Positions 1 to 54,400 of a DNA stretch of 64,000 nt are shown here, one piece after another. The stretch is from contig OZ024763.1 in assembly GCA_964016885.1 (NCBI GenBank), forward strand, positions 19,592,001 to 19,656,000, written 5' to 3'. The stretch comes from Eledone cirrhosa. Taxonomy: Eukaryota. Made by a program: the position numbers and the translations under genes. Below the pieces are notes generated by a model. It was not told the origin of the DNA and made no database searches. It worked only from the letters and a program-made list of their open reading frames with translations. Each line of letters starts with the position of its first letter. Within the stretch, counting starts at the first letter, position 1.

Positions 1-2
1 AT

Positions 3-1547
3 CTTGTACGTCACAAAAGAATACACACAGGAGAAAAACCTTATTCATGTGAAATATGTGAGAAATCTTTTTCTGATGGTTCTGACCTTGTAAAACACAA
101 AAGAATACACACTGGAGAAAAACCCTTTCATTGTGAAATATGTGGGAAATCTTTTTCTTGTGGTTCTTATGTTGTACGTCACAAAAGAATACACACAGGA
201 GAAAAACCTTATTCGTGTGAAATATGTGGGAAATCATTTGTCTCCAACAGTGACTTGAGAAGACATACCACAACACACACAGGAGAAAAACCTTATTCAT
301 GTGAAATATGTGAGAAATCTTTTTCTAATGGTTCTGATCTTGTAAAACACAAAAGAATACACACTGGAGAAAAACCCTTTCATTGTGAAATATGTGGGAA
401 ATCTTTTTCTTGTGGTTCTTATGTTGTACGTCACAAAAGAATACACACAGGAGAAAAACCTTATTCGTGTGAAATATGTGGGAAATCATTTGTCTCCAAC
501 AGTGACTTGAGAAGACATACCACAACACACACAGGAGAAAAACCTTATTCATGTGAAATATGTGGGAAATCTTTTTCTCATAGTTCTGTTCTTGTAGGTC
601 ACAAAAGAATACACACAGGAGAAAACCCTTATTCATGTGAAATATGTGGGAAATCTTTTTCTCATAGTTCTCATCTTGTACGTCACAAAAGAATACACAC
701 AGGAGAAAAACCTTATTCATGTGAAATATGTGAGAAATCTTTTTCTGATGGTTCTGACCTTGTAAAACACAAAAGAATACACACTGGTGAAAAACCGTTC
801 CATTGTGAAATATGTGGGAAATCTTTTTCTCAAGGTTCTATACTTGTACATCACAAAAGAATACACACAGGAGAAAAACCTTATTCATGTAAAATATGTG
901 GGAAATCTATTTCACATGGTTCTACACTTGTACATCACAAAAGAATACACACAGGAAAAAAACCTTATTCATGTGAAATATGTGGGAAATCTTTTTCTCT
1001 GGCTTCTCATCTTGTAGATCACAAAAGAATACACACAGGAGAAAAACCTTATTCATGTGAAATATGTGGGAAATCTTTTTCTCGAGGTTCTTATCTTGTA
1101 TATCACAAAAGAATACACACAGGAGAAAACCCTTATTCATGTGAAATATGTGGGAAATCTTTTTCTCATAGTTCTCATCTTGTACGTCACAAAAGAATAC
1201 ACACAGGAGAAAAACCTTATTCATGTGAAATATGTGAGAAATCTTTTTCTGATGGTTCTGACCTTGTAAAACACAAAAGAATACATACAGGGGAAAAACC
1301 CTTTCATTGTGAAATATGTGGGAAATCTTTTTCTCAAGGTTCTTATGTTGTAAGTCACAAAAGAATACACACAGGAGAAAAGCCTTATTCGTGTGAAATA
1401 TGTGGGAAATCATTTGCCTACAACAGTGACTTGAAAAGACATACCACAACACACACAGGAGAAAAATCTTATTCATGTGAAATATGTGGGAAATCTTTTT
1501 CTCAACGTTCTACACTTGTACGTCACAAAAGAATACACACTGCATAA
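3..1547 (+). CDS. C2H2 zinc-finger protein ZNF-A copy 1 (5' part outside the window)
   Basis: Open frame from base 3 with tandem CxxC-x12-HxxxH fingers and TGEKPY linkers, matching the 3' part of copy 2. The track start at 255 is a TTG, not a real start. Confidence 0.9.
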   Translation, partial: LVRHKRIHTGEKPYSCEICEKSFSDGSDLVKHKRIHTGEKPFHCEICGKSFSCGSYVVRHKRIHTGEKPYSCEICGKSFVSNSDLRRHTTTHTGEKPYSCEICEKSFSNGSDLVKHKRIHTGEKPFHCEICGKSFSCGSYVVRHKRIHTGEKPYSCEICGKSFVSNSDLRRHTTTHTGEKPYSCEICGKSFSHSSVLVGHKRIHTGENPYSCEICGKSFSHSSHLVRHKRIHTGEKPYSCEICEKSFSDGSDLVKHKRIHTGEKPFHCEICGKSFSQGSILVHHKRIHTGEKPYSCKICGKSISHGSTLVHHKRIHTGKKPYSCEICGKSFSLASHLVDHKRIHTGEKPYSCEICGKSFSRGSYLVYHKRIHTGENPYSCEICGKSFSHSSHLVRHKRIHTGEKPYSCEICEKSFSDGSDLVKHKRIHTGEKPFHCEICGKSFSQGSYVVSHKRIHTGEKPYSCEICGKSFAYNSDLKRHTTTHTGEKSYSCEICGKSFSQRSTLVRHKRIHTA

Positions 1548-1797
1548 AAACCTTATACATGTGACATATGTGGGAAACTTTTCACTAAGAGTTCTGATCT
1601 TGTAGTTCACAAAAGAATACACACTGGTCAAAAATCCTTGCAATGTGAAATATGTGGGAAATCCTTTGCCTCTAACAGTAAATGGAAAAGACATACAACA
1701 ATACACACTGGAGAAAAAACCTTATTCATGTGAAGTTTGTGGGAAATCTTTCCCTCAGAACTCTTCACGAGTTGTTCACAAACGTAGTCAACACTAG
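1548..1797 (+). pseudogene. Three degenerate C2H2 fingers downstream of the ZNF-A stop (copies at 17636-17885, 33711-33960, 49865-50114)
   Basis: After ACT GCA TAA the frame continues [57 protein letters not shown], then a +1 frameshift, then [25 protein letters not shown], which resembles the ZNF-B C-terminus. Confidence 0.9.
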
Positions 1798-1904
1798 TGT
1801 TAAACCCCATTACTGGGAAATATGAAACATTAATAAACACACAAACAGTTGGAGTAAGAATATGAAATGTGATAAATGTTACTGTTACACATTGAAGCAT
1901 ATAT

Positions 1905-1934
1905 ATACACACATACACACACACACACACACAC
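1905..1934. repeat. (CA)n microsatellite, one per unit
   Basis: acacacacatacacacacacacacacacac. Confidence 0.9.
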
Positions 1935-2559
1935 AATCTTGACTCACAAACGTAATTCATTCCTGAAGGCCGATCGTCAGCCAAATTGTTTGTAAAGCAA
2001 AACTATTTTTCCCATATGAAATTTTAAGAGAGAAATACAGGGAGAGAGGCAGTGTAAAAGACTGATAGATATCACCATAGTAACTAACTATGCAGCAAGT
2101 GACACTTTCCTGCTGATACTCCCAGCTTGTTGCCAACCTTTGTTGCTGGCTTGTGTGTTCATTACTTGAGACACCGTTCATCAATGAAGATGTTTTATGT
2201 ACAGATTTGTTTTTAATGAGAGGAGTTTGTGATTTGAGGTTCCACTGTATATATATCAGTGTTGTAGTTTGATTGAAGCATTGTTGATAGGAAACACATT
2301 TAAATAATTTTGAAAACCATACATTACGCTAGAAAATTAAAATTTCCAAAATATAGAATCTTTACCTTGGCAAATTTACCAAATATTCTAGTGTTTTAAA
2401 ACCTATTATTGATCCTTTAAGTCTCTCACAGGGATACTCGCTTGTATGGGTTTCAAAATTATTTAAATTTGTGTTTCATATATATATGTATATATATATG
2501 TACTTCTCTATCAATTGTAAGAAATAAACTGCCATATATCAAAGATTACCACAAAAACT

Positions 2560-2810
2560 AGGCAGTAGAGTACAAGATATGCTGGACACTGCTACTGAAG
2601 CAAGGATGACCTGATGAGCTGGCTGCTGTTGTGGATACCTAAACATAGTAAGAACCTAGTGCGATGACCAAGATTGACTTACATAGATCAGATGTCTCTG
2701 GATGTCCAGCTAGAGATTAATGATCTCAGAAATGCCAGACATCTAAAAGAGAAGAGTAGAGTTGTTCCGGCCAATCCACCTGACCTAATAAATGATAATG
2801 ATAATATATA
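2560..2810 (+). mobile_element. 3' fragment of an RTE-like LINE (related copies 13265-13490 and 60225-60460, and in each unit)
   Basis: Translates to RYAGHCY..DDLMSWLLLWIPKH..PRLTYIDQM, an RTE C-terminal-like motif, and ends in an aat/gat microsatellite tail. Confidence 0.65.
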
Positions 2811-2919
2811 TTGATGAAAATTAATTATGGTGAAATATGTTGGAAATTATTCTCAGAGGTTTTGTATTGTAATCCACAAATACACCGTGGAAAGTTCTAC
2901 TTCATATTATTTGTCATTG

Positions 2920-3200
2920 CCATTCTGAGTTCAAATCCCGCCAAAGTTAACTTTGCTTTTCATCCTTATGGGGTCGATAAAATAAAGTACCAGTAATGCA
3001 CTGGGTAACTGCTGGCATTGTGCCAAAAGTAGAAACAATTATTTGTCATGTTGAGGGTGGTGGATTTACAGAATCTAGTGTCAGATGATATGCTGCTGAG
3101 GTTAGCTTTACTTTTCTTCCTCAGGTTCAGTAAAATAAAGTACCAGTAATCCACTGGAGTTGATTTAATCAGCTTTCTCCTTCCCTTCCAATAGCTGGCG
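2920..3200 (+). mobile_element. tRNA-type SINE fragments (two partial copies)
   Basis: B-box gagttcaaatccc followed by core aactttgcttttcatccttatggggtcgataaaataaagtaccagt; many related copies in the window. Confidence 0.7.
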
Positions 3201-3849
3201 TTGATAAAAAACAATACCAGTCTAATACTGGGGTCTGTTTTTCCTCTCTATTTCTTCCACTCTCTCATTCTCTTTCCTTCTCTGGAAGAAATCAACTGTT
3301 CAAACTTGGTGAGTGAAGGGCTCCACCAAGCTTCAAATATCCACAGTGGCACCCTTATGACTACATCATTTACAAAAACAAAACTAAAGATTTATTCTTT
3401 ATTTTATAAATCTTACCTGGTTTATATTTATATTTATGACAAAATATCCATGTGTATTATGTGTAAATAAAACCGATTTTATAACTAATATTTGTTGGAT
3501 GGTACTTTCATGACAGTTCAAATTATTAACATTTGAAAATACTTTAAAACTCTCTCTTTTTCTTCACCCATTTATTCCTGGGAGGGTTGTAGGAGGTAGA
3601 GTCCTCACCCGTTTATAGGTCCTATATGTGTAAAGTTTCCACAACAGATACACAACACATCCAAACCAGGTAGTTATACCTACCCAGTATTTTGATTTTA
3701 GTGATTTTTTTTGTAACAAATCTCAACATCCGAGACCTTACTAAGTGGAGTGCAACTCATCAGATTGGACCAAGGAAACAAAGTTTCCATTGGTCTTTCC
3801 AATTGATGATATAATCTATAATCTACCAGTTGTAACTCCGGTAAGTAGA

Positions 3850-3955
3850 ACAAGGGGAAATAAAGTGTCCTGCTGAAGAACTTAACACATCACCTAGTCT
3901 AGGAATTGAACTCAGAACCTCATGATTGTCAATCCAACTCTCTTACTACTAAGTG
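3850..3955 (-). mobile_element. tRNA-type SINE head, second family
   Basis: ggaattgaactc is a reverse-strand B box; it is the reverse complement of the plus-strand copy at 4110-4230. Confidence 0.55.
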
Positions 3956-4109
3956 ACATATCTTCCTAAGTTTCAGTGATAGTGGACAGTAAATAACGTG
4001 ATGGTGGTCATTTTATTTGATAGATTGACCAGTTGATCATCTCAATGGTGTATTATTGCCTTTTTTTCACAGCGTCTCTTGAAGTCGATGAGAAAAAGGT
4101 AATAGAGTA

Positions 4110-4230
4110 TTGGTTAGGGTGTTGGACTCAATGATAAACTTGTGAGTTCAATTCCTGCGATTGGCAACATGTTCTGTCGTACCAGAAGACAATTTATTTC
4201 ATGTTTCTTCAGTCCAATCAGCTGGAAAAA
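4110..4230 (+). mobile_element. tRNA-type SINE head, second family (another remnant at ~8235-8345)
   Basis: tggttagggtgttggactc ... gagttcaattcc (A/B-box-like) followed by cagtccaatcagctg. Confidence 0.55.
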
Positions 4231-4379
4231 AATTAGTTGTGACAACTCTGGTTCCAAGCTATATCAGGCTGTGACTTTCCTTTGGACAACATCATATAGT
4301 CTATATATAGTGATAACATGGGATGTATAGCTCTTTAGTTCTTAGTCCAGATTGTTCCATCAGGAATATATGTCAACTA

Positions 4380-4810
4380 ATTGTCTCCAATGATTTCAGT
4401 TGGTGACAGATTGTTAACATCCATGGCAGCTGATGTTGACAGTTTGTGGGTCATTTTGGAATGTGTTCCACCAGGTTATCTTCGGCTGGCCTCTTTTCCA
4501 CATGGCTTCAGGGTGTATCCATGTCATCGCTGTTTTAGACAGGTGGTCTTTTGGAGGGTGCAGAATGTGACACACAAAATGGAACCAACATTCTATGATG
4601 ATCTCCTGTAGTGTATGTGACCCTGCTCTCCACAGGATCTCACCAGCTGACCTTTAGAATCTTATGCAGGCACCTTTGTTAGAAAATGTTTAGAGACCTA
4701 TCCATCTTCACAGTGCGTTTCCATGTTTCACAGTCATAGATGGTCATGGGAAGCACAATGCTAGTGTACAAGCGGAGCTTGAGATACATGCTGAGGGCTC
4801 TGTTTGACCA
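4380..4810 (-). mobile_element. RTE-like LINE fragment, C-terminal region (copies ~20468-20898, ~36543-36973, longer copy ~52760-53260)
   Basis: Minus-strand translation of the 52.8-53.3 kb copy gives WHF/FAGHILHLPKDHLSKTAITW..KRGQPKITW and KLRLYTSIVLPMAIY, typical of RTE ORF ends. Confidence 0.7.
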
Positions 4811-4812
4811 GA

Positions 4813-5510
4813 ACCGAGATCCCCTCAGGGAAATAGCCTTCTCCAGTATATAGGAAAGGCGGTAGAAATTCCATCCTCTGCTCCATATGCAAAATGTCGG
4901 TATGCAAGAGATGTGATGGGATCTCAGGAAGTTTAGCTCTGAATGTAGGCTCTATGTGTGGCAGTTGCACTGGAACAGTAAACAGCAAATGAGGGCTACC
5001 AAATTCTCAGACGGGTCTGTAGAAACAGTAGATAGCTCCTGCTACTTAGGTGCCCGAAATAGCAGTGGTGCTGGGTGTACTGATGGTACAGGAGCCAGAG
5101 TAAGAACGGGATGGAGGAAGTTCAGGGAACTACTGGCTACATAAGGCTTCTCAAAATGAAAGGCAGATTATCTGATGCATGTGAACGTTCAGCAAGGCTA
5201 CATGGTACTGAGACTTGGGCGCTGCATGCAGAAGTCTTGTGTAGATTGGAAAGAAATGAAGCATAAATCAACTGAGAAAGAAACTAGGCATAAAAGGAAT
5301 CAAATTCTGTATGCAGGAGAGGAGATTGCTTTGGTGTGGACATGTGTTGCGTATGAAGGAAGACAGCTGCATAAAAAGCGCTGAAAGTCTTTGGAATCCT
5401 TGGAGTGGGGTGACCCAGGAAAACCTGGGATGAGGTGATTAAAGCCTACCTTGCCCAATTTCACCTCTCAGAAGAGATGACACATGACCAAGATCTCTGG
5501 CGATGTGCAG
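4813..5510 (+). mobile_element. RTE (BovB-like) LINE 3' fragment (copies ~20901-21583, ~36976-37658, ~53385-54130)
   Basis: IPSGKWPCPIC..GRNSILC cysteine cluster, CYLG, ARVRTGWRKFRELL, LHGSETWA and ERRLLWCGHVLRM, interrupted by stops and frameshifts. Confidence 0.8.
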
Positions 5511-5579
5511 TAATACAACAGTAATACGAACACAAGCTGAAGCATATGTACAGTATGCTCCGCTCCCAACAGCCCGCCT

Positions 5580-5781
5580 AGCCCACACACTAAAGTGGAC
5601 GTGTAAAAGACACGACAAGAAGCACCCAGCCCACACTGTGAATGTGGTTGGCATTAGGAAGGGCAACCAGCCAGAAACACCCCTATATGTGTGGTCACGG
5701 TCACCCGACACAACTTGCCTCAAAATAGGATCCATCCAACCCATGCTAGCATCGAAGATGGACATTAATCAATGATGATGA
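5580..5781 (+). mobile_element. Short retroposon with RTE-type (GAT)n tail (copies per unit, ~54180-54378 and 62340-62790)
   Basis: gtggttggcattaggaagggcaaccagc ... ccatccaacccatgctagcatcgaagatggacatt ... gatgatgat. Confidence 0.65.
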
Positions 5782-5924
5782 TATATATGTAGTGTACACA
5801 TAGTATAGTATAGTGCATATATATATATATATGATAAATGCTGGGGTCAAGCTGATTCAGCCATTCCTCTGGACAACATTATATATAGTGTATGTATGTA
5901 GTATATATATATATACATATACCA

Positions 5925-7912
5925 GTTGCAACACTAACTTCAAGAAGCCTACCAACCACCTAATAACCTACCAATCAAGCGAGCACATAAGCCAGATTGA
6001 CTTCTTGCTAGTTAGGCAATGAGACAGACAGATGGTGTCAAATACTAAGGCATACCCCGGGGAAGAATGTATCCAGTGACATCTCAATAAACAAGAGACA
6101 TACAGGAAGGTGTGGAAAAGGAACACCTGGAAGCTAAAAGACCTTTCACTAAAATATGAATTTAGGAAAGCCTTCAAGATGTGTATGACGCAAAAGAAGA
6201 CGATTCAGAATCGTGTGACATAGATGATAACTGGAATTTCTTACTTGACAACTTACTGTAGGCTACTGAAGACACTTATGGCTGGAGCAGAGCTCCGACC
6301 AGACAAAGAGTGACCTGGTGGTGGAACAGCATGGTAGATAGGGCCATTAGCGACGAAACGCTAGCATGGGATGCTTGGAAAAAATGGTGGGAGTAGAGAC
6401 CGATACACAGCCGCTAAGAGAGAAGCTAGACGTCAGGTGTACTTAGCAGGCAGGGAGGCTGAGAGTAAGAGGTTTGCCAATGTTCTGTGATGGGAAGATC
6501 AGAGACGTGCAGTATTTTGCATTTCAAGGCAGTGTGTCAGTGTAAATCAGGATGTTGTTGGAGATAAGTGTGAAATGATGCTGCTGTACTTAGTGTCACT
6601 AATGATCAGAAAAGGGAGGCCTAGAAATGTCATTATGACAGACTAATTGGAGAAAGTATCAAATTAGATGAGATGCAGTTTGGTTTTGTGCCTTGGAAAA
6701 GTACAACAGATGCCCTCTTCTTAGTAAGACAACTACAAGAGAGGTTCTTAAAGAAGAATAAGCCACTATACTTAGCTTTTGTTGACCTAGAGAAGGTCTT
6801 TGATAGGGTACCCTGATCTGTCATCATAATGGAGTTTACTGAGGAATTCCAGATACAAGTAGGAGTACATCAGGGTTCGGTCCTCAGCCCGCTGTTGTTC
6901 ATTATAGTCCTCCAAGCCATAACAGAGTAGTTTAAGACTGGCTGCTCATGGGAACTTCTCTATGCTGACAATCTGGTAATTATAGCAGAATCAGTAGAGG
7001 AGCTAGAGAATAAATTCTGGCAATGGAAACAGCAGTTGGAATCAAGAGGACTAAGAGTGAACCTAGCTAAGACAAAAGTGTTGATAAGTAGAAAAAGAGA
7101 CAAAACCATGATTCCATCATAAATTCTATAAAATGTACACAATGCAGATCTTGGATACACAAGAGATGTAGTGGGATAGGAGGCAAACTTACAGGTAGGG
7201 AAAACCATGTATGCAGTAGATGTACAGGTAAATTTTTGACAGTAGAAGTCGAAGTGACAGATACATTTTTCAAATGCAGGTGGGTTCTATAGAAGTGGTT
7301 CACAGCTTCCGGTACCTAGGTGATCAGATTAGCATGGGAGGAGATGTTCCGAGGCCATAGTATCTAGAATAAGGACAGGTTGGAAGAAGTTTAGGGAGCT
7401 GCTTACTCTGTTGACCTAGAAGGGTTTCTCCCTACGAACGAAAGGCCGGTTATATGATGCCTGTGTGAGATGCGCAATGCTGGATGGTAGTGAGACATGG
7501 GCAGCAACTGCAATGGATATGCGACGGCTGGAGAGGAATGAAGCAAGCATGCTCTGTTGGATGTGCTATGCCAGTGTGCGTGAACAACCAAGCATAGATG
7601 AGTTGAGAGAGAAACTGTGTAGAAGAGGGATAAGTTGTAGTGTGCGGGAGAGAAGACTTTAATCGTATGGACGTGTGATGCGCATGGAGGATGACCACTG
7701 GGTAAATAAGTGCCAAGAAATGTCAGTAGAAGGAAGACGCAGTAGAGGAAGACCACAAAAACATGGATGGAGGTGGTGAGAGCAGACCTCAGATCGCTGA
7801 AGCTCACAGAGGAGATGACAGAGGTCAGTGAGAAGTGAAGAAATGTTGAGCTGAATAGGACCCATCCCACCATTGCAAGCAGAGAAAAGTGGATGTAAAA
7901 TAGTGATGATGA
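5925..7912 (+). mobile_element. Degraded RTE LINE (end of endonuclease, RT, 3' tail), unit 1
   Basis: CNTNFKK..HLITYQS..SQIDFLL (APE C-terminus), TWWWN, QFGFVP..STTDALF..AFVDLEKVFDRVP, GVHQGSVLSPLLF, LLYADN (YADD), VNLAKTKV, GSETWA and a gatgatgat tail. Confidence 0.9.
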
Positions 7913-8629
7913 TATATGTAGTGTATATAATAGTTGTAATGTCACCAGTGCCAATCTATATCAGCTTTTCTCTTGGTCAACATGATATATAGTCTGTATA
8001 TATTGGACAATATTATATATAGAGTATATGTGGTGTAAATAATAGTTGTTATGACGACATTCTATATACATATGTACACACACACTGACAAACATGTATT
8101 TACATATCGAAGGATTTATGAGTATTTCATAGGCTAACCAAGTTACTCTCATGGAATGAAACGATGTATACACATATATACTTATACATATGTATACAAA
8201 CACATATTTTATAGTAAAGACATACATCATATTGTAATATCATGTTTTCAATTCTTAGCGAGGTAGGTACATTGTGTCCTTAAGCAAGACACATCATTCC
8301 ACATGTCTCTCATCTCCACAGCTGAAAAACACAAGTAGCAGAATTTGGAGGTTTAGCATGGGCTGGAATATTCTCTGCCTCCAACCTTTTCACTTCGGCC
8401 ACAAACCCAGACTTTGCTACCTGCTGTAGAGAGAAGAAGAAGGAATTAGAATGACAACAGTCCACTTGAGGAAGGAGTCCCATGGGATGGAATGGATGTT
8501 GTAGTGGGTACCTCTGGCTATTCTCCATGGTAACACCTTTGCCATTTTGTCTGTAGGGTGGGGCTGAATCACAGCTCAGACTGAAATATAATGTCTGTCC
8601 CTTTGCCTCTCCCATTATTTTCGTTGCTT

Positions 8630-8850
8630 GGGCGGTGGATTGGCAGTATCGGTAGAGGCTCAGACGCCATATTTTGACGCATAGAGTTACGGCCTTGCCG
8701 TTCTGCCTTCAAATCCCGCCGCAGTTAACTTTACCTTTCATCCTTACAGGGTCGATAAAATAAAGTGCCAGTCACGCACTGGGGTCGATTTAATGTACAC
8801 CCCCCCCCCAAAAAAAAAAATTACTGGCCTTGTGCCTAAATAAGAAACCA
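8630..8850 (+). mobile_element. tRNA-type SINE (tandem pair of the same family at ~13808-14190; other copies ~57510-57690 and ~60610-60780)
   Basis: A-box-like tggcagtatcggtagag, B-box-like ttcaaatccc, and core tttcatccttacagggtcgataaaataaag..cactggggtcgattta. Confidence 0.75.
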
Positions 8851-9130
8851 TTATTTATACAAATCTGATTAAAGAACTAGCATATTGATTGAACGTGTGA
8901 ATTAACATAACTGAAGGTCTTTCTGAATGTATTAAATTATGTAGGGGACTCTTAAGCCATGGCACCGACTTCAAGTAGCCATTAGAAAATTATCATCTAC
9001 CTCGGCTCCATCGTTACCACTTGTTACCGTCGTTACCACATAAAATGTGAAGATTGAGAAATCCTTCTCTTATACATCTCAACATATAAGCGTGTGTATA
9101 TATATATGTTTTTATTTAATATTTATATAT
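8850..9130 (+). other. Deletion scar: ZNF upstream flank fused to ZNF downstream flank (copies at ~24925-25205 and ~41000-41280)
   Basis: 8850-9024 matches 14300-14473 and 57803-57975 (upstream of ZNF starts). 9040-9100 matches 60058-60110 (downstream of the ZNF-B stop). Confidence 0.8.
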
Positions 9131-9626
9131 ATATATATACAGCGGTGGTACCCGGCGTTGCACGGGATAAGGTATTTTGGAATGCGGGCTGCCAGCAGAC
9201 CTAATCGTGGAAAAACTGCATGCCTGGACAATATGTAAAGAAAATAAACCGAATACTCTGATGGCTGGATAATCTAAGATTAAACCTGCCTTTTCCTGAA
9301 GCAGGAAAAGGCAAGTTTTCACCTAATTCGATCTAAAGGGGACCCACCAATTCCATACACTCATTTCCATTGGCTGCAAGGAAATATGTTCATACACGCA
9401 TATAGAATAGGTAATAATTTATGATAGAGTAGACAGCATCATAGATGACAGAGTTAGCATGTTCCGTGAAAACTTTATTAACTGCGAAGACGGTGGTCTA
9501 TCTTCAGAAAAAAAACAACATCCAATAAAACTAGTTTTGCAATCGATTATTCACCAACAAAAATTCGTATGTACAACAAATCGTCCATCTAAAACTTTAC
9601 TTTCACATTCGAGCACATCACTTGTT

Positions 9627-12137
9627 CTACAGTTCTAATTTGCGATGTTTTAGTTTAGAAATTTTTCAATCACGATGCTGAAGTCAATTTTTTCAGCCAG
9701 TTCTCGCTCTATGTACATCATTGCCAGAGCATTCAACCGCTCTTCACTCATGGTACTACGCAAATAATTCTTTCGAATACTCGTCGAAGATAGTGTCATT
9801 TTCGATGTCACCCTCGTAGAATTTCACAAGATTATCGATTCTCTCTCTATTGCATGTGTCGTCGTCGTCGAAGTGCGCCGGTATCAAGCACGAAAAATCC
9901 TTCACTAGATCGTGCAAGTCGGCAAAACGTTCGTTAAAGCTACTAATGATTCTATCTAAGATAGTGAAATAAACGTCCCGTTTAAAATGCTGACTCATCG
10001 TCTCATGAGGTTCGTCATGAAAACGCTTCTTTTTTCTTTTCCGTTTTTCTGTTGTAAACTCTGGTTCAACTTGACATTGCCCGGCGAGAATTTTAGCGTC
10101 TGATAATGTTCGGTCAAAATATTCATTTGAGCGGATATCTTCAATTTCTTTTACTACATTTTTAATCATGACGTCCGCGGAATATAAGTCGATAGCCTCC
10201 TTCTGCAAATATTGTGAAACAGAATGCAGCTTTTTAAGTAAATTCTGAAACTTCAACATGAAAATGAATTCAAACTTGCTCACATTTAGTAGCAAACCTC
10301 TGGCCTCGGCTAATACTTTTGGAGCAGTGTTGTGAACATCCCCACTTATTATCCTCTCTAGTGCACTTATTACTGCCGGTAAGTTGTTAATGGTAGCCTC
10401 TACAGCCTGAATGTGACTAAACCAGCGCGTATCTGAGAGTCTTTTTAATGTTAATACCGTTGAAATCAATAGTTTTTCTTGTTCTTCTTCGAGGATTTTC
10501 AGCGGTGGCAAGCTTGATGTTAAGAAAACATACAGGCTCTCCAATATACCAAAAAATAATTTACCATCCACTGACGATTGGCTAGCATCGATTAACACCA
10601 GGTTCAGGTTATGAGCGCAACAATGGACGTAAACAGCTTTCGAAGAGCATCTCTCTTTAACTCTAGCCTGAAGCCCAGAAATATGGCCAGACATATTCGA
10701 CACTCCGTCGTAAGCTTGTCCCCTAATATATTGAGCATCCAAGGATAGATCCTGGAAAAGAACTTTCACAAGCGAATCGTAAAATGATTCAGTGGCTGCT
10801 GATTCTAGTTCACAAAACGACAGGAAATGCTCCTGTGCGTGGCCACTTTTCGATACATATTGCAGTGACAGAGCATTGATCCTGATGCGAAATATCTATT
10901 GTGGAATCGATGATGACTGAATAGTATTTTACCGCTTTCACTTCCGTGATTATTTGTTGAGTACATTCGTTTGCCAGGCATTCTATGAATTCGTTTTGTA
11001 ATTTTGGACTTAAGTACATAGGCTGTCCTTTAGTGCGCCCAGGCGAGAATAAATGGCTTTCCAAGATCGTATCATACTTAGCCATCAATTTCAACAATTC
11101 AATAAAGTTTCTTTCATTTTTTGATTTGGCGCCAAGTCCAGCATATTCCCTGTGACCTCTGAAGGGGAGGCCTTGTTTTGCGAGAAATAACGTACAATCA
11201 AGCAATCGCCTCAATATCTGGCGATTTCGTTCAATTCGCTTCTTCTCTTCATGGATGAGGTTATCGATCACTGTTTTATCTGCGTCCAAACGATATTTTG
11301 TCATGAAGTATTACTTTTGTGAATTGACGTGAATGGCACTTTTCTCATGCTTGGCAATTTTTTAGAATCCCCATTTTGAAGTTTGCCATCCCACACTCTG
11401 GATTACCCCAAGTCTTCGAGTAAGATTCGGCATTTTTATCAGCAAACAGCCAACAACAAAAGCAATATAGTCTGTTGGATTCAGGAGAGTATACTAACCA
11501 GTGTCGGTCAACTTTATGGATTCCAGCACACTTTCTCTTGTACCAACTGATATTGAATTTTCTGTGGTTCGAGTCGAGAGGGAAATCAGCAAAATTATCT
11601 TTCAATCCTGGCTGACAAGGACCAACGGCCATGAGGGCGCGAATTAAAGGTGTCGTCAATGGTCTGTCCTTGAAATGTTTTCGGTCGCCTGGATACTTCT
11701 CTTGTAAATTCAACATGCATTCTACTGGCTCATACTCTGCGATTTGTTTTGCCAGTGTAGTTTCCTCTGAATCATTTTCATTTTCAGATTCCGATATAGC
11801 CATTTTTCCCTCTATTGAGTTCGGATCCCCAGTTGGAACTACATCTTCAGTGACTACGACGGTTGTTGAGATAGTCGATGGACCTGAGGCATCTTCGACA
11901 TCAGGTTCTCATGACCCTCCAGTGCTTTTCTGTTTCTCCAGTTCATCTGACCAGACTGACTCGCCAAATATTCCGGCAGTTACGTTTCTTTGGGATGCGT
12001 CACTACTTGTTGACGAAGACTGTTGACTTTTCAGAAAACTTGTGATTAGATGACATTTTGCAGATTCTTCTGTGGCAGCTTGTCTAGCTTCTCTCCTCTT
12101 TGTTGCTCCAGTTTAGTAAGTTTTTTTTAGGCAGCAT
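9627..12137 (-). pseudogene. hAT transposase pseudogene (TTF-type Zn finger, DUF4371-like region, RNase H-like core, partial dimerisation domain)
   Basis: Fragments: WLVYSPESNRLYCFCCWLF; LAKQGLPFRGH..NFIELL..YLSPKLQNE..IIDSTIDISH; RGQAYDGVSNMSG, YVHCCAHNLNL, DTRW; out-of-frame KNYLRSTMSEERLNALAMMYIE. Several frameshifts and stops. Confidence 0.92.
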
Positions 12138-12289
12138 TGTTAATGAGCACTATATTGACACTGTTTTCCAGTGGCTTTGTCTTTAAAAAAAATTCTTCCA
12201 TTTTCCTGTTTCTCTTTTTTTTTTCTATAAGTCTTTAAGTGCCGAAATAGCTTGTGATTAGAAAGCCACTTCACTTACCGCATTTCTCT

Positions 12290-12530
12290 GGTCGTGGCAA
12301 GTCGTTGGCTGGTTTTCCTCTCTTCCACGTGTGTACAATCCAGCTCGCCGATCGCAGCCTCAAATCGCACGTCTGTCTCAGTCCGATGACCGCCGTAGAA
12401 AAGAAGGGGCCTCTCAAGCTGACGTCACATCTGCTCGACTTTCCGGTCGAGCACGCTTCCGGTCAAGCACGCCCAGCCTCCGGCCACTACACACCACACC
12501 ATTCCCACAATGTGCATTATATTGACGCAC
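12290..12530. promoter_or_regulatory. CpG-rich putative promoter inside the hAT 5' region (copies ~28365-28605, ~44440-44680)
   Basis: GC/CpG-rich patch with CACGTG (~12326), TGACGTCA (12420-12427), CTTCCGG (12456-12462) and TTCCCACAATG (~12502). A minus-strand donor CG|GTAAGT lies at ~12273-12280, upstream of the transposase ATG at 12137. Confidence 0.45.
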
Positions 12531-44200: not shown

Positions 44201-45408
44201 TGACATTTTGCAGATTCTTCTGTGGCAGCTTGTCTAGCTTCTCTCCTCTTTGTTGCTCCAGTTTAGTAAGTTTTTTTTAGGCAGCATTGTTAATGAGCAC
44301 TATATTGACACTGTTTTCCAGTGGCTTTGTCTTTAAAAAAAATTCTTCCATTTTCCTGTTTCTCTTTTTTTTTTCTATAAGTCTTTAAGTGCCGAAATAG
44401 CTTGTGATTAGAAAGCCACTTCACTTACCGCATTTCTCTGGTCGTGGCAAGTCGTTGGCTGGTTTTCCTCTCTTCCACGTGTGTACAATCCAGCTCGCCG
44501 ATCGCAGCCTCAAATCGCACGTCTGTCTCAGTCCGATGACCGCCGTAGAAAAGAAGGGGCCTCTCAAGCTGACGTCACATCTGCTCGACTTTCCGGTCGA
44601 GCACGCTTCCGGTCAAGCACGCCCAGCCTCCGGCCACTACACACCACACCATTCCCACAATGTGCATTATATTGACGCACTTGGAATAATGCAATTTGCT
44701 TGATTTGATATTCAACACCGAAGAATGTAAAACATGTCAAATAATCGACGAAAAGCAAATACCAAGTTGTTCTAAAATGTGACTAATGATAAAAAGTAAC
44801 AACATAAATAAAAATATTATATATATATTTTCTATATAATCACACAATATATAGATATATATATTTGTGTGAATATACTCATGCATAATTATACTTTTAA
44901 TTAAATATTAGGTTAAAAACCTGAGTATAGAGAATAACATAAGCATGTATTACAACATTTCAAACAAATAAAATAATATACAATTTAGATATCAAATCAT
45001 TTATTTATATTTACAAATCAAAGAATATAATAATCGGTTTTTAATGAGATCCCTGTGATTGATGCAAGGCTACTAGTTTGTCAATGTTTAGTGTGAAAGC
45101 CGTTAGAGAGAGTCCTAAATCACATCTTCTTTCTATATCAAGGCGATTTTGACTTTTTGAAAGCAGATGCATCACCTGACTCAACTAAATAAGATGTGGG
45201 GAAAGCAAGTGAAAAAAATTTAGCGTTTTTATTTGACGGAATATTGTCTACACAGATTAAGCGTTTTCTTTACGTTGTTGTAGTTAAGGATTCGTAATTA
45301 CATGTGTAATAAGTTATGTGTTTAGAATTATAGCCTAGGGGTCCCACCTAGACCGACAGGAAAGCTAGGTGGGCGGCAGCCCCCCCCCCCCTGTTAGTTA
45401 CGCCACTG
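41290..45408 (-). mobile_element. Defective hAT transposon, unit 3
   Basis: Copy of the unit-2 element; the poly-C tract near the TIR is 2 nt shorter. Confidence 0.85.
41777..44287 (-). pseudogene. hAT transposase pseudogene, unit 3
   Basis: ORF fragments 41906-42919, 42960-43454 and 43495-43953 translate identically to units 1-2. Confidence 0.92.
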
Positions 45409-47441
45409 GCTGAGAGTAGGATGACCTGATGAGCTGGCTCCTGTGGTGGATACCTAAACATAGTAAGACCCTAGCGGGATGACTGAGATTGACCTACATA
45501 GATCAAATGTCTCTGGATGTCCAGCTGGAGATTAATGATCTCAGGAATGCCATGGAAGATCGTGATATCTAAAAGAGAAAAGTAGAATTGTTCTGGCCAA
45601 TCCACCTGATCTAATTAATAATAATAATAATAATATATATTGATGAAAATTAATTACAGTGAAATATGTTGGAAATCATTCTCAGATACATCCTGTAGAG
45701 AGTTCCACTTTATATTATTTGTCATTAAGGTTTCTTACAGAGACACAATCTCATTTCATTGTTGAGGGTGGTGGATAGGCAGAATCAGTAGAGCATTCGA
45801 CAACATACTTTCTGTCATATAGTTACATCCCTTTACATTCTGCTGATTTCCTCCTCAAAATTAGAAAGACAACAGCCCACATGAGGAAGGAGTTCCACGA
45901 AGTGGAGTGGATGTTGCAGTAGGTGACAGGAGTATAACGCCTGTCCCTCTCTCATTGGTGGATTGGCAGTATTGGTAGAGGGTCAGACACTATGCTTTGA
46001 CGCATAGATTTACGGCCCTTTCCATTCTGAGTTCAAATCCCGCCGAGGTCAACTTTGCCTTTCATCCTTACATGGTCGATAAAATAAAGTACCAGTAATG
46101 TACTGGGTAATTGCTGGCCTTGTGACAAAATTAAAAAAACAATTATTTTAGTTGCTTGGGCAGTGGATTGGAAGTATCGGTAGAGGGACGCCTTGCAGCA
46201 AAGAGTTACGGCCTTTTATGGTCTGAGTTCAAATCCCGCCGAGGTTAACTTTGCCTTTCATCCTTACGAGGTCTATAAAATAAAGTACCAGTAATGGCAT
46301 AATTGCTGGCCTTGTGCCAAAAGTAGAAAAAATTATTTTAGTTGCTTGATTCGTTTTCGTTTTTCTTCTTTACATTTCAGTTTTTTTTTTATGAACTTTA
46401 ATAATGTGTTTTGTTTTAATATGAACAGTGATGTAAAATTCGTGATATTATTTATACAAATCTGAATAAAGAACTAGCATATTGATAGAAAGTGTGAATT
46501 AATATAACTGAAGGTTTTTCTGAATTTATTAAATTAAGTAGGGGACTTTTAAGTCATGACACCGACTTCAAGTAGCCATTAGAAAATTATCATCTACATC
46601 GGCTCCAACGTTACCACTTGTACTTAATCTAATTTTATCTTTTGTGGTGATTATTTCATATTAAGGTAGACATTAATGTTTATATATAACATAAGGTGAT
46701 TTATGTTCCTTATAGTTGTTGTTTTATCACCTGTATTATTAAATATTTCATTTCATCACAAACAACCCCCATCGTGAAGTTGGTTGTTCAACATTTTACA
46801 GAACAGGAAAATATTATTTTAGTCAGAAATCAGTGAACATTTAGTTTTTACTAAATTTTCTTGACATTATATTTGGTCTTCAAAACTGAAGTACGTATTA
46901 TTTCGTTTTCCATCACAGCACAAACATTGTGAACTTTTCTACTATCTGTAGTGAAATATCTTGATTTATTACAACACGTACACACACACGTCTATTTATT
47001 TCTCTCTCTCATACGTACACACTGTATGTCTGTATATATATATTAACCTTCATCTTATGTAATTATGAATATTAATTCTCTTGTGACCTGAATTGTCGTC
47101 AATAACAAGGACCTTTGTTTCGAAGACATATTCGTCTGTTTTATGAGCTGAAGATTTTAGTGTGCCTACTGCTTCTCTCACTATAACAAAAATAATAGTG
47201 GAATACTCCAGAATAATTTCTCTCTCTCTTCATCCAAGATCAGTTTTACGCTGCCATGCGTCTTATTACTTATACCGAGTGCTACATTACAACTTTGTAG
47301 AAGAAGAAAGCCGTGTCCTGCAGTCTTTTATGGACACTGTTGTATATTAGACTACATAGTATCTATTGACGATTTCTACATTTCTTAATATATGAGTAAA
47401 AGTGATGAGAATCCTTTATGTAAAGATCACTAGCTAGAAAT

Positions 47442-49864
<2,423 letters not shown>

Positions 49865-51499
49865 AAACCTTATACATGTGACATATGTGGGAAACTTTTC
49901 ACTAAGAGTTCTGATCTTGTAGTTCACAAAAGAATACACACTGGTCAAAAATCCTTGCAATGTGAAATATGTGGGAAATCCTTTGCCTCTAACAGTAAAT
50001 GGAAAAGACATACAACAATACACACTGGAGAAAAAACCTTATTCATGTGAAGTTTGTGGGAAATCTTTCCCTCAGAACTCTTCACGAGTTGTTCACAAAC
50101 GTAGTCAACACTAGTGTTAAACCCCATTACTGGGAAATATGAAACATTAATAAACACACAAACAGTTGGAGTAAGAATATGAAATGTGATAAATGTTACT
50201 GTTACACATTGAAGCATATATATACACACATACACACACACACACACACACAATCTTGACTCACAAACGTAATTCATTCCTGAAGGCCGATCGTCAGCCA
50301 AATTGTTTGTAAACCAAAACTATTTTTCCCATATGAAATTTTAAGAGAGAAATACAGGGAGAGAGGGAGTGTAAAAGACTGATAGATATCACCATAGTAA
50401 CTAACTACGCAGCAAGTGACACTTTCCTGCTGATACTCCCAGCTTGTTGCCAACCTTTGTTGCTGGCTTGTGTGTTCATTACTTGAGACACCGTTCATCA
50501 ATGAAGATGTTTTATGTACAGATTTGTTTTTAATGAGAGGAGTTTGTGATTTGAGGTTCCACTGTATATATATCAGTGTTGTAGTTTGATTGAAGCATTG
50601 TTGATAGGAAACACATTTAAATAATTTTGAAAACCATACATTACGCTAGAAAATTAAAATTTCCAAAATATAGAATCTTTACCTTGGCAAATTTACCAAA
50701 TATTTTAGTGTTTTAAAACCTATTATTGATCCTTTAAGTCTCTCACAGGGATACTCGCTTGTATGGGTTTCAAAATTATTTAAATTTGTGTTTCATATAT
50801 ATATGTATATATATATGTACTTCTCTATCAATTGTAAGAAATAAACTGCCATATATCAAAGATTACCACAAAAACTAGGCAGTAGAGTACAAGATATGCT
50901 GGACACTGCTACTGAAGCAAGGATGACCTGATGAGCTGGCTACTGTTGTGGATACCTAAACATAGTAAGAACCTAGTGCGATGACCAAGATTGACTTACA
51001 TAGATCAGATGTCTCTGGATGTCCAGCTAGAGATTAATGATCTCAGAAATGCCAGACATCTAAAAGAGAAGAGTAGAGTTGTTCCTGCCAATCCACCTGA
51101 CCTAATAAATGATAATGATAATAATATATATTGATGAAAATTAATTATGGTGAAATATGTTGGAAATTATTCTCAGAGGTTTTGTATTGTAATCCACAAA
51201 TACACCGTGGAAAGTTCTACTTCATATTATTTGTCATTGCCATTCTGAATTCAAATCCCGCCGAGGTTAACTTTGCTTTTCATCCTTACGGGGTCGATAA
51301 AATAAAGTACCAGTAATGCACTGGGTAATTGCTGCCCTTGTGCCAAAAGTAGAAACAATTATTTGTCATGTTGAGGGTGGTGGATTTACAGAATCTAGTG
51401 TCAGATGATATGCTGCTGAGGTTAGCTTTACTTTTCTTCCTCAGGTTCAGTAAAATAAAGTACCAGTAATCCACTGGGGTTGATTTAATCAACTTTCTC

Positions 51500-54400
51500 C
51501 TTCCCTCCCAATTGCTGGCCTTGAGTTAAAAGTAGAAACATTTATTTAAAGTCTCTAAAACAATGGATAGAATGCTTTCTGCCATATTTCTTCTGGTTTT
51601 CCGCTCTCTGAGTTTAAATCCTGCTGAGGTCAAATTTGTCTTGCATCTATTCAAGGTTGATAAAAAACAATACCAGTCTAATACTGGGGTCTGTTTTTCC
51701 TTTATATTTCTTCCACTCTCTCATTCTCTTTCCTTCTCTGGAAGAAATCAACTGTTCTAACCTGGTGAGTGATGGGCTCCACCAAGCTTCAAATATCCAC
51801 AGTGGCACCCTTATGACTACATCATTTAAAAAAACAAAAACTAAAGATTTAGGTCTTCATTTTATAAATCTTACCTGGTTTATATTTATGACAAAATATC
51901 CATGTGTATTATGTGTAAATAAAACCAATTTTATAACTAATATTTGTTGGATGGTACTTTCATGACAGTTCAAATTATTAACATTTGAAAATACTTTAAA
52001 ACTCTCTCTTTTTCTTCACCCATTTATTCCTGGGAGGGTTGTAGGAGGTAGAGTCCTCACCCGTTTATAGGTCCTATATGTGTAAAGTTTCCACAACAGA
52101 TACACACCACATACCACAACACATCCAGACCAGGTAGTTATACCTACCCAGTATCTTGATTTTAGTAATTTTTTTTTGTAACAAATCTCAACATCCGAGA
52201 CCTTACTAAGTGGAGTTGATTTCATCAGATTGGACCAAGGAAACAATGTTTCCATTGGTCTTTCCAATTGATGATATAATCTACAATCTACTAGTTGTAA
52301 CTCCGGGTAGGTAGAAGAAAGTGAAATAAAGTGTCTTGCTGAAGGACTTAACACATCACCTAGTCTAGGTATTGTACTCAGGACCTCATGATTGTCAATC
52401 CAACTCTCTTACCACTAAGCCACATGTCTTCCTAAGTTTCAGTGGGTCCCTTGAAGTCGATGAGTAAAAAGGTAATAGAATATTGGTTAGGGTGGTGGAT
52501 AAACTTGTGAGTTCAATTCCTGCGATTGGCAGCATGTTCTGTCATACAATAAGAAAATTTATTGCATGTTGCTTCAGTCAAATCAGCTGGAAAAAATTAG
52601 TTGTGACAATTCTGGTTCTAAGGTATGACTTTTCTTTGGACAACATCATATAGACTATATATATATTGTGTGTACTGAATATATATATATATAGTGATAA
52701 CCTGGTATGTATAGCCCTTTAATTCTTAGTCCAGATTGTTCCATCAGCAATATATGTCAACTAATGTGTCTACAATGATTTCAGTTGGTGAAAGGTTGTT
52801 GACATCCATGCCAGATGATGTTGTCAGTTTGTGGGTCATTTTGGAATGTGTTCCACCAGGTTATCTTCGGCTGGCCTCTTTTCCACGTGGCTTCAGGGAG
52901 TATCCATGTTATTGCTGTTTTAGACAGGTGGTCTTTTGGGAGGTGCAGAATGTGACCCGCAAAATGGAACCAACATTCCATGATGATCTCCTGCAGTGTA
53001 TGTGACCCTGCTCTCCACAGCTGACCTTTAGTTTCTTATGCAGGCACCTTTGATGGAAAGTTTTTAGAGACCTATTCATCTTCACAGTCATAGATGGCCA
53101 TGGGAAGTACAATGCTAGTGTATAAGCGCAGCTTGAAATACATGCTGAGGGCTCTGTTTGACCAAATCGAGTGCATCCATTGGAACACCACAGTCACCTT
53201 TACAAACCTGCAGTTGATTTCCACCTCAAAGTTGCCACTGTTGATCAGAACACTGCCCAGTATATATAGAGGATATTTATATAGTGTATATATTAGTTGT
53301 GATGACACTGGCACCAAGTTATATCAGCCATTGACCTCACTTTGGATAACATCATATAGTGTGTGTATAGAATATATATTTATTGGTAGAAATTCCAGAA
53401 AAAAGAACGAAGATCCCCTCAGGGAAATGGCCTTGTCCAATATGTAGGATAGTTGTTGGTAGAAATTCCATCCTCTGCCCCATATACAAAATGTCGGTAC
53501 GCAGGAGATGTAATGGGATCTCAGGAAGTTTAGCTCTGAATGTAGGCTCTATGTGTGGCAGTTGCACTGGAACAGTAAACAGCAAATAAGGGCTACCAAA
53601 TTCTCAGACGGGTCTGTAGAAACAGTAGATAGCTCCTGCTACTTAGGTGCCCGAAGTAGCAGTGGTGTTGGGTGTACTGAAGCTACAGTAGCCAGAGTAA
53701 GAACGGGATGGAGGAAGTTCAGGGAACTGCTGGCTACGAAAGGCTTCTCCCTCAGAATGAAAGGCACACTTTATGATGCGTGCATACATATAGCTATGCT
53801 ACATGGTAGTGAGACTTGGGCGCTGTGTACTGAAGACTTGTGTAGATTGGAAAGAAATGAAGCATAAATCAACTGAGAAAGAAACTAGGCATAAGAGGAA
53901 TCAAATGCCGTATGCAGGAGAGGAGATTGCTTTGGTGTGGACATGTGTTGCGTATGATGGAAGACAGCTGTATAAAAGTGTGCAGAGCGCTGAAAGTCAT
54001 TGAAATCTTTGGAGTGGGGAGACACAGGAAGACCTGGGATGAGGTAATGAAATCCGACCTTGCCCAATTTCACCTCTCAGAAGAGATGACACATGACCAG
54101 GATCTCTGGAGATGTGCAGTAATACAGAAGACCCGACTTCCCACGAGCACAAGCTGAAGCATATGTACAGTATGCCCCCCAACCACACTAAGGTGGACGT
54201 GTAAAAGACACGATAAAAAGCGCCCAGCCCACACTGTCAATGTGGTTGGTATTAGGAAGGGCATCCAGCTAGAAACACCCCTATATGAGCAGACAGTCAC
54301 CCAACACAGCTTGCCGCAAAATAGGACCCATCCAACCCATGCTAGCATCGAAGATGGACATTAATCAATGATGATGATATATATGTAGTGTACACAGTAT

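What the first reader, a model, noticed from the sequence alone, without database searches (positions are those of the whole stretch)
1..51500. Very young 16-kb macrosatellite co-amplifying a long zinc-finger gene and a hAT transposon
Seen: three-plus head-to-tail copies of a ~16.08-kb unit; I found no difference between units 2 and 3 apart from a poly-C length, and each carries ZNF-A plus a hAT on the opposite strand. Known: C2H2-ZNF genes expand in tandem clusters, notably in coleoid cephalopods. Inference: this is a nested amplification system caught in action (84-bp finger, 2-3-finger blocks, ~11-kb gene cassette, 16-kb higher-order unit) that could generate both dosage and DNA-binding variation.
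Basis: partly seen in the sequence, partly recalled or inferred. Interest (0 to 1): 0.75.

Follow-up and report, generated by a model that had tools for sequence, protein, structure and literature searches.

The report
Young tandem duplication of damaged zinc-finger
A 16-kb block holding a zinc-finger gene with a broken start and a dead transposon is repeated head to tail in what is likely an octopus gene cluster, likely through unequal crossing-over, so it looks like ordinary gene-cluster turnover rather than a system that boosts a working gene.

Summary
The repeat is present: period 16,075 bp, with 19,931 bp identical between neighbouring units. It begins about 14 kb upstream of the window and holds four spacers and four long ZNF copies, after a shorter paralog, A0. 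The founding junction maps to 136 bp (18577-18712) in the 3' flank shared by two paralogous ZNF cassettes, 6.7 kb from the hAT. Spacer 2 is an exact left/right mosaic of spacers 3 and 1. Both fit unequal crossing-over. The cargo is damaged. All four long copies have a frameshift after finger 1, giving 37 aa from the family start codon, and the fourth also has a stop. The hAT lacks one terminal repeat and 190 bp and is frameshifted. A new in-frame ATG could still give a 26-finger protein; no RNA test was possible. One unit could be an assembly error, or further units could be collapsed; read depth was not testable. This scan noted similar ZNF arrays elsewhere in this genome (unchecked), and mouse KZFP clusters behave alike (PMC12575710). 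Verdict: a new member of a known kind.

The parts
1..1547 (+). ZNF-A1, 3' part (family ATG at -791, upstream of the window); long frame identical in protein to A2 and A3
   Evidence: one synonymous base differs from A2
1792..15294 (.). Spacer 1 (13,503 bp); differs from spacer 2 by 4 substitutions and 2 indels, one of 15 bp
9325..13260 (-). Dead hAT copy in unit 1
   Evidence: offset from the unit-2 copy
9386..29316 (.). First copy of the 19,931-bp exact repeat (second copy 25461-45391)
15297..15410 (+). ZNF-A2 family start codon frame: finger 1, then a frameshifting deletion (16 bp against full-length paralogs, 13 bp against A0); 37 aa
15437..17635 (+). ZNF-A2 long frame from a derived ATG 26 nt after the short frame's stop: 732 aa, 26 C2H2 fingers; no family other than zinc-finger-type matches seen in the 25 rows shown; translation untested
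17636..17879 (+). Degenerate fingers behind the stop codon, shared with A0
17880..31369 (.). Spacer 2 (13,490 bp): left alleles of spacer 3, right alleles of spacer 1; switch between 25460 and 29305/30694
18577..18712 (.). Founding junction interval: A4-type flank to the left, A0-type flank to the right (homologous intervals in units 1 and 3)
   Evidence: 22:0 against 0:17 informative sites; P=4e-9 without the microsatellite sites
20480..24000 (.). Decayed LINE-like fragments (class inferred from the sequence, not tested with a family library)
24925..25405 (+). Remnant of a second ZNF cassette: upstream flank (24925-25099) joined to downstream flank (25115-25405), gene deleted
   Evidence: 93% to 30374-30548; 91% to the flank behind the ZNF at -20226
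25400..29335 (-). Dead hAT: one terminal repeat (29322-29335), the other end lost, 190-bp deletion at 25848/25851, transposase in 4 pieces over 3 frames with stops
31372..33710 (+). ZNF-A3, identical in DNA to A2, same frameshift
33955..47439 (.). Spacer 3 (13,485 bp) with the third dead hAT at about 41475-45408
47442..49864 (+). ZNF-A4: same frameshift, 27 fingers (one finger lost, a two-finger block gained, three contact-residue changes against A2), stop codon at 48851-48853
50109..51531 (.). A4 3' flank, last part of the array (98.4% to the unit)
51656..58645 (.). Older paralog of the spacer (74-93%) without the 5.2-kb remnant-plus-hAT block; defines the 11-kb cassette
58648..59997 (+). ZNF-B, intact single-copy paralog, 449 aa, 15 fingers

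Best explanation
This is a young four-spacer tandem duplication inside a C2H2 zinc-finger cluster, likely of an octopod, likely made by repeated unequal crossing-over, and it copies a frameshifted, likely decaying ZNF gene and a dead hAT as passengers. Shown: the founding junction lies in a 136-bp interval of the 3' flank shared by paralogs A0 and A4; the copied gene is A4-type; spacers 1 and 3 differ by 0.07%; spacer 2 is an exact mosaic of the two; the hAT lesions are in every spacer. Inferred order: (1) an older two-cassette block lost one ZNF and took a hAT insertion, making the unit 16 kb rather than 11 kb; (2) finger blocks duplicated inside ZNF-A and a short-repeat slip frameshifted its start; (3) A0 and A4 flanks mispaired and crossed over; (4) the now near-identical units mispaired again at least twice. 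Inferred, untested: no selection for dosage; copy number likely varies between individuals.
For: Clean switch of informative sites at 18577-18712, 22:0 then 0:17. Spacer 2 carries spacer-3 alleles at all left diagnostic sites and spacer-1 alleles at all right ones. Four distinguishable spacers, a 15-bp indel, and no N in 264 kb do not fit two haplotypes joined at a gap, the pattern described in PMC9516828 (passages). The frameshift junction occurs exactly only in the four copies; a similar deletion arose at a C9 paralog; 7 of 29 sampled paralogs also break within 33 aa and only 14 of 29 keep 5 or more fingers in frame. The hAT differs by 2.4-3.7% from 8 of 8 dispersed copies compared, far more than the spacers differ from each other (0.03-0.6%). 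Mouse KZFP clusters grow by segmental duplication carrying earlier TE insertions along (PMC12575710, passages).
Against: No read depth or long reads from the source individual. Copy number across a 19.9-kb exact repeat (21.3 kb if poly-C is ignored) cannot be fixed by shorter reads. The 26-finger frame is open in A1-A3 and starts at a derived ATG in a position where only 3 of 315 sampled fingers have Met (15 of 315 anywhere in the finger), which hints at a rescued gene. Near-identical multi-kb duplications were found in only 1 of 7 other ZNF regions sampled, so such young events are not everywhere. Diagnostic sites cluster at the right end of the spacers, which a simple crossover series does not fully explain; conversion or allelic tracts are needed.
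Confidence: 0.72

Rival explanations
1. Three spacers are real, but unit 2 is an assembly over-expansion: the assembler went round the loop once too often across the identical stretch shared by spacers 1 and 3.
For: 0 differences in 19,931 bp. Spacer 2 has no private allele and is a pure mosaic, which a mis-join would also give. False duplications persist in long-read assemblies, mostly on the same scaffold (PMC9516828, passages).
Against: The sites that define spacer 2 lie 5,234 bp apart, within one long read (read lengths are general knowledge; the technology is not known here). No gap. Collapse is the more usual error for identical repeats (own knowledge), so the true number could also be higher.
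Confidence: 0.13
2. The amplified gene works: the short frame acts as an upstream ORF, ribosomes re-initiate at the derived ATG, and the duplication triples the dose of a 26-finger DNA-binding protein, possibly under selection.
For: 732-aa open frame with 26 intact fingers in A1-A3. Derived ATG 26 nt behind the short frame's stop with A at -3. Met is rare there, 3 of 315 fingers. The finger just upstream of the new ATG has lost a cysteine while those downstream have not. 41% of amino-acid diversity sits at positions -1, 2, 3, 6, against 27-36% in five neighbours.
Against: A4 has a nonsense codon. The divergence is too small for an open frame to show selection (inference). Early frameshifts are common decay in this subfamily, 7 of 29. 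The Met test is post hoc. Finger-to-finger conversion alone concentrates change at contact positions (inference).
Confidence: 0.11
3. The whole array is two haplotypes joined in tandem.
For: Spacer 0 differs from the others by 0.45-0.6%, within the 0.08-1.1% heterozygosity reported for octopods (PMC9795677, passage).
Against: Four spacer versions cannot come from two haplotypes. The junction at 18577-18712 joins flanks about 3% apart. No gap. A real crossover between homologs would give the same allelic-level difference, so 0.45% is only an upper bound on age.
Confidence: 0.02
4. The hAT drove the amplification by transposition or as the founding recombination substrate.
For: It sits in every unit, and the latest crossover window (25461-29304/30693) overlaps it. 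The family has at least 36 dispersed copies, one with an open frame over the part fetched.
Against: One terminal repeat and 190 bp are missing and the frame is broken in all spacers. The founding junction is 6.7 kb away. The latest window is simply where spacers 1 and 3 have no differences.
Confidence: 0.02

Closest known systems
Young mouse KRAB-ZNF clusters, e.g. Chr4 (PMC12575710; passages seen)
   Same: Growth by segmental duplications that span genes and earlier TE insertions; non-allelic homologous recombination proposed; coding genes mixed with pseudogenes; shared and reshuffled fingerprint arrays.
   Different: No KRAB match among the Pfam rows shown. The founding junction is in paralogous cassette flank, not an ERV. 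Copies are strictly head to tail and 99.9-100% identical. Mollusc, not mammal.
Coleoid C2H2-ZNF expansion in chromosomal clusters (PMC9068888, PMC9795677, PMC12513265; passages seen)
   Same: Clustered multi-finger C2H2 genes in a genome with coleoid-type hemocyanin; 211 matches to this subfamily's start motif genome-wide; tandem duplication named as the mode in PMC9795677.
   Different: The passages seen treat counts, trees, dates and expression, not breakpoints of single events. Here one event is mapped to 136 bp and the copied gene is frameshifted.
Gene-bearing macrosatellites such as D4Z4/DUX4 and RS447/USP17 (recalled, no call)
   Same: Multi-kb head-to-tail units with a gene and near-identical copies.
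   Different: Only four spacers in the assembly; ends grade into older paralogs; no evidence of population copy-number variation or array-level silencing.
PRDM9-type minisatellite finger arrays (recalled, no call)
   Same: 84-bp units with exact internal duplicates (7 of 300 finger pairs identical) and diversity enriched at contact positions.
   Different: Mean finger identity is only 84%; no PR/SET, KRAB or SSXRD match among the Pfam rows shown.

Membership tests
Tandem duplication by non-allelic homologous recombination | Directly oriented paralogous sequence at both ends of the duplicated segment | tested here: met
   A0 and A4 share their last fingers, the stop codon and a 3' flank about 97% alike
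Tandem duplication by non-allelic homologous recombination | Chimeric junction with a single switch of paralog-specific alleles | tested here: met
   22:0 then 0:17 sites, switch at 18577-18712; spacer 2 mosaic
Tandem duplication by non-allelic homologous recombination | Confirmed by reads or in other individuals | not testable with these tools
   no run matched the window's alleles in the low-copy parts shown
Macrosatellite (definition recalled) | Multi-kb units head to tail with high identity | tested here: met
Macrosatellite (definition recalled) | Long array, typically ten or more units | tested here: not met
   four spacers in 264 kb examined; a genome search with spacer DNA found four full-length places among 40 scored; collapse cannot be excluded
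Macrosatellite (definition recalled) | Copy number varies between individuals | not testable with these tools
   no suitable reads
Coleoid C2H2-ZNF cluster gene | Tandem C2H2 fingers with TGEKP linkers | tested here: met
   Pfam zf-C2H2 and zf-H2C2_2 far above cut-off
Coleoid C2H2-ZNF cluster gene | Located in a cluster of paralogs in a coleoid genome | tested here: met
   nine further starts in the 84 kb upstream; hemocyanin unit scores 650-659 bits to 1js8, 4yd9 and 6r83 against 507 to 3j32 (the species of these entries are recalled); seven strong units per gene (seven as the octopod number is recalled)
Coleoid C2H2-ZNF cluster gene | Intact frame from the subfamily start codon | tested here: not met
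   37 aa in 4 of 4 long copies; A0 and B are intact
Coleoid C2H2-ZNF cluster gene | Expressed and translated | not testable with these tools
   no RNA data available
hAT DNA transposon | Transposase homologous to hAT proteins (DUF4371 plus C-terminal dimerisation domain) | tested here: met
   45-49% identity to PF14291/PF05699 proteins; DUF4371 hits
hAT DNA transposon | Terminal inverted repeats at both ends | tested here: not met
   only the 5' one is present; 5 of 8 dispersed copies show the repeat at the end where the window lacks it
hAT DNA transposon | Intact transposase frame (autonomous element) | tested here: not met
   4 pieces in 3 frames, stops, about 70 residues deleted
hAT DNA transposon | 8-bp target-site duplication | tested here: inconclusive
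   one end is deleted, so the second flank is gone
False duplication (PMC9516828 criteria) | Assembly gap between copies | tested here: not met
   0 N in 264,000 bases
False duplication (PMC9516828 criteria) | Haploid-level or lower read depth, discordant reads | not testable with these tools
   no reads of the source individual

The most novel reading that the evidence does not exclude
The array is a real, copy-number-variable amplification of a ZNF that was rewired at its start: a slip turned the family's conserved first finger into an upstream ORF, a new ATG rescued a 26-finger protein whose finger blocks shuffle like a minisatellite, and unequal crossing-over is now multiplying it, perhaps to more copies than the assembly shows. 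It would be a breakpoint-mapped case of new ZNF dose and specificity arising within one octopod lineage.
Probability: 0.12. Interest if true: 0.55.

Novelty: new member of a known kind. Interest (0 to 1): 0.27.

Why it matters
Cephalopod C2H2 expansions are usually described by counts and trees. This locus shows one birth event at base resolution: the substrate was paralogous cassette flank, the transposon was cargo, and the copied gene was already damaged. That supports largely neutral birth-and-death turnover and warns that ZNF counts include near-identical broken copies. It is a handy test locus for copy-number polymorphism, but the mechanism is established in mammals and similar arrays have been noted elsewhere in this genome.

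Tried and rejected
Read-based tests: no RNA holder listed, so expression is open. The one lay that ran (4 of 20 listed runs) was dominated by other repeat copies. At low-copy sites 20165 and 20504 all contig depth showed other letters, so these runs are not the source individual and give no copy number. A depth comparison between single-copy flank and spacer was not obtained. Protein search with the first 60 aa of ZNF-B returned 57 generic ZNFs, mostly amphibian, at 61% identity or less, and did not help with taxon or start codon. Search with an open hAT frame found nothing above 52% identity among the 120 rows listed of 275, so no donor or recipient could be named. The long-period arrays on C10, C8, C6 and C11 that shared a 280-bp element with the unit proved not to be ZNF arrays. 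The bracketed contact labels were mis-indexed and were recomputed; a linker pattern returned nothing and was not used. No absolute age is given, because the paper consulted gave a formula but no rate in the passage seen. Minus-strand ORFs over the finger arrays were rejected as shadows of the repeat. Structure prediction was not run because the fold is known. Literature: 'cephalopod' + 'macrosatellite' gave 1 paper, a general review (listing only); one search listed 15 of 24 papers, none on single octopus ZNF duplication events by title or abstract start; one search listed 7, none on this hAT by title or abstract start. Supplements were not read and may hold such cases.
Full report
Observation. 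The window is dominated by one long-period repeat. The commonest 25-mer offset is 16,075 and a self-alignment covers 1-33919 against 16089-49989 at 98.9%. The longest exact match is 19,931 bp, 9386-29316 against 25461-45391, longer than one period. I fetched 100 kb on each side. The array starts upstream, at about -14,300, and ends at about 51,531; there is no N in the 264 kb. It reads: ZNF-A0 (ATG -15578), spacer 0, A1 (-791), spacer 1, A2 (15297), spacer 2, A3 (31372), spacer 3, A4 (47442), 1.4 kb of shared flank, an older paralog of the spacer, then ZNF-B (58648). A genome search with 601 bp of spacer found four full-length places, all here, among 40 scored.

Organism. The genome holds hemocyanin genes with seven strong functional-unit hits each. 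One unit scores 650-659 bits against PDB 1js8, 4yd9 and 6r83 and 507 against 3j32. From recall, the first three are cephalopod, the last is gastropod, and seven units is the octopod number. I therefore call it a likely octopod. The ZNF subfamily start motif has 211 matches genome-wide, in clusters.

Differences between units. Spacer 0 differs from the others by about 0.6% (0.45% behind the junction). Spacers 1 and 2 differ by 4 substitutions and 2 indels, one of 15 bp. Spacers 2 and 3 differ by 6 substitutions and 2 indels, all in the last 2.1 kb. Spacers 1 and 3 differ by 10 and 4. A2 and A3 are identical; A1 differs by one synonymous base. Spacer 2 has no allele of its own: it matches spacer 3 at every left diagnostic site and spacer 1 at every right one.

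Mechanism. In the 1.4 kb behind the finger arrays, three versions can be compared. Up to 18576 the unit sides with A4 against A0 at 22 of 22 such sites; from 18713 it sides with A0 against A4 at 17 of 17; four sites are private to the unit (P=4e-9 after dropping 8 microsatellite sites). The founding exchange therefore lies in 136 bp of flank shared by two paralogous cassettes, and the copied gene is A4-type. This is the signature of non-allelic homologous recombination. The event itself is inferred. If it took place between homologous chromosomes, the 0.45% may be allelic difference (octopod heterozygosity 0.08-1.1%, PMC9795677, passage), so it is only an upper bound on age. The mosaic spacer 2 is what a later unequal exchange between spacers 3 and 1 would give. 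With 0 differences in 19,931 bp, divergence is below about 0.015%. The clustering of differences at the right end of the spacers needs some conversion or allelic tracts as well.

Nesting. The 16-kb unit is an 11-kb cassette plus about 5 kb. The stretch 51656-58676 matches the spacer at 74-93% but skips 24855-30090. The extra part is a second cassette whose gene was deleted (upstream flank 24925-25099 joined to downstream flank 25115-25405) with the hAT inside. Within ZNF-A, fingers average 84% DNA identity with 7 of 300 pairs identical, against 67-74% and 0-1 identical pairs in five neighbours. A4 lacks one finger of A2, has an extra two-finger block and three changed contact residues.

The gene is damaged. 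All sampled paralogs begin with the same first finger. In A1-A4 a deletion between short direct repeats just after finger 1 shifts the frame, giving 37 aa. The junction occurs exactly only in these four copies; a similar deletion arose at a decayed C9 paralog. A4 also has a stop at 48851-48853. Among 29 other subfamily genes in seven regions, chosen for close spacing and not at random, 7 break within 33 aa and 14 keep five or more fingers in frame, so early frameshifts are common here. Against simple decay: a derived ATG at 15437, 26 nt behind the short frame's stop, opens 732 aa with 26 intact fingers, and Met stands at that finger position in only 3 of 315 sampled fingers. This is a post hoc hint. 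No RNA data were available, so translation is open.

The hAT is cargo. It spans 25400-29335 on the minus strand and is 45-49% identical to hAT-type proteins. It keeps one terminal repeat; 5 of 8 dispersed copies show the repeat at the other end, where the window has lost it. It lacks 190 bp present in dispersed copies and aligns to an intact homolog in four pieces over three frames with stops. Spacer 0 matches across the deletion and the lost end, so the damage predates all duplications. It is 2.4-3.7% from 8 of at least 36 dispersed copies and 6.7 kb from the founding junction.

Real or artefact. Four spacer versions, a 15-bp indel, a chimeric junction between flanks 3% apart, and no gap argue against joined haplotypes as described in PMC9516828 (passages). 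At least three spacers are very likely real. Unit 2 is less sure: its defining sites are 5.2 kb apart, within one long read, but its number cannot be fixed by reads under about 21 kb, so one false unit or several collapsed units are both possible. The public runs laid were not from this individual and gave no copy number.

Comparison. The pattern matches young mouse KZFP clusters: segmental duplication, earlier TE insertions carried along, pseudogenes and reshuffled fingerprints (PMC12575710, passages). Clustered C2H2 expansion in coleoids is established (PMC9068888, PMC9795677, PMC12513265; passages), and a link of ZNF families to TE control is proposed across animals, octopus included (PMC10547256, passages); what ZNF-A would bind is untested. 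In this genome I found one more young ZNF tandem, a 2.2-kb triplication at 99.5% of another frameshifted copy, in 1 of 7 regions sampled, and several non-ZNF arrays with 5.8-21.7-kb periods. Earlier notes of this scan describe larger ZNF arrays on other pieces (AI notes, unchecked; one named PMC12575710 before my own search listed it). None was listed near this window. It fails the long-array feature of a macrosatellite in this assembly but works like one in its latest step.

Verdict. Observation partly confirmed, interpretation partly supported. It is a well-resolved, very young tandem duplication of largely broken cargo by a known mechanism: a new member of a known kind, interest 0.27. The bolder reading, a rescued 26-finger gene gaining dose, has about 12% odds.

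Noticed in passing
window 25449-29144; run X9: The hAT is about 97.5% alike (79 other letters in 3,139 bases of 8 listed contig pieces) and deeply covered in organism F, whose contigs barely cover the SINE- and LINE-rich bins that are very deep in organism A. X1 and X9 share most listed other letters. This may be a horizontally spread hAT family; a protein search found no near-identical relative to name a host.
   Followed up: partly
L021-L040 (G000 C10 54.98-55.06 Mb, C8 0.235-0.295 Mb, C6 102.33-102.37 Mb, C11 35.00-35.02 Mb): One family of young tandem arrays with 5.8-5.9, 9.8, 15.7 and 21.6-kb periods, exact matches up to 8.3 kb, reverse-transcriptase-like ORFs and no ZNF; those on C10, C8 and C6 lie within about 0.3 Mb of contig ends.
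   Followed up: partly
window 18581-18966 and 29336-29613: A 280-400-bp element sits behind ZNF cassettes, begins at the founding junction interval, and recurs in every unit of the end-of-contig arrays at 83-93%. Its class is unknown.
   Followed up: partly
L058 (G000:C18:11906496-11913282): Three-copy 2.2-kb tandem at 99.5% of another ZNF with an early frameshift, 32 aa.
   Followed up: partly
L050:1166-3466 (G000:C2): A dispersed hAT copy with an open transposase frame and no stop over the 767 codons fetched; the family may have been active recently.
   Followed up: partly
L077 (G000:C9:17714958) and paralogs at -33900, -26022, -20226: Deletions and insertions recur at the linker after finger 1 in this subfamily, some in frame and some not: a likely slippage hotspot.
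   Followed up: partly
G000 C26 21.93-22.02 Mb and C1 173.74-173.91 Mb: At least five hemocyanin gene copies; the two on C26 are inverted and score almost identically unit by unit, possibly a young inverted duplication or an assembly duplicate.
   Followed up: no
window 25215-25400: A short, high-copy element abutting the hAT's deleted end; its start resembles non-autonomous Helitron ends (recalled, not tested). It also follows two upstream ZNF paralogs.
   Followed up: no
window 62345-62650: 48-bp minisatellite, 6.5 copies.
   Followed up: no
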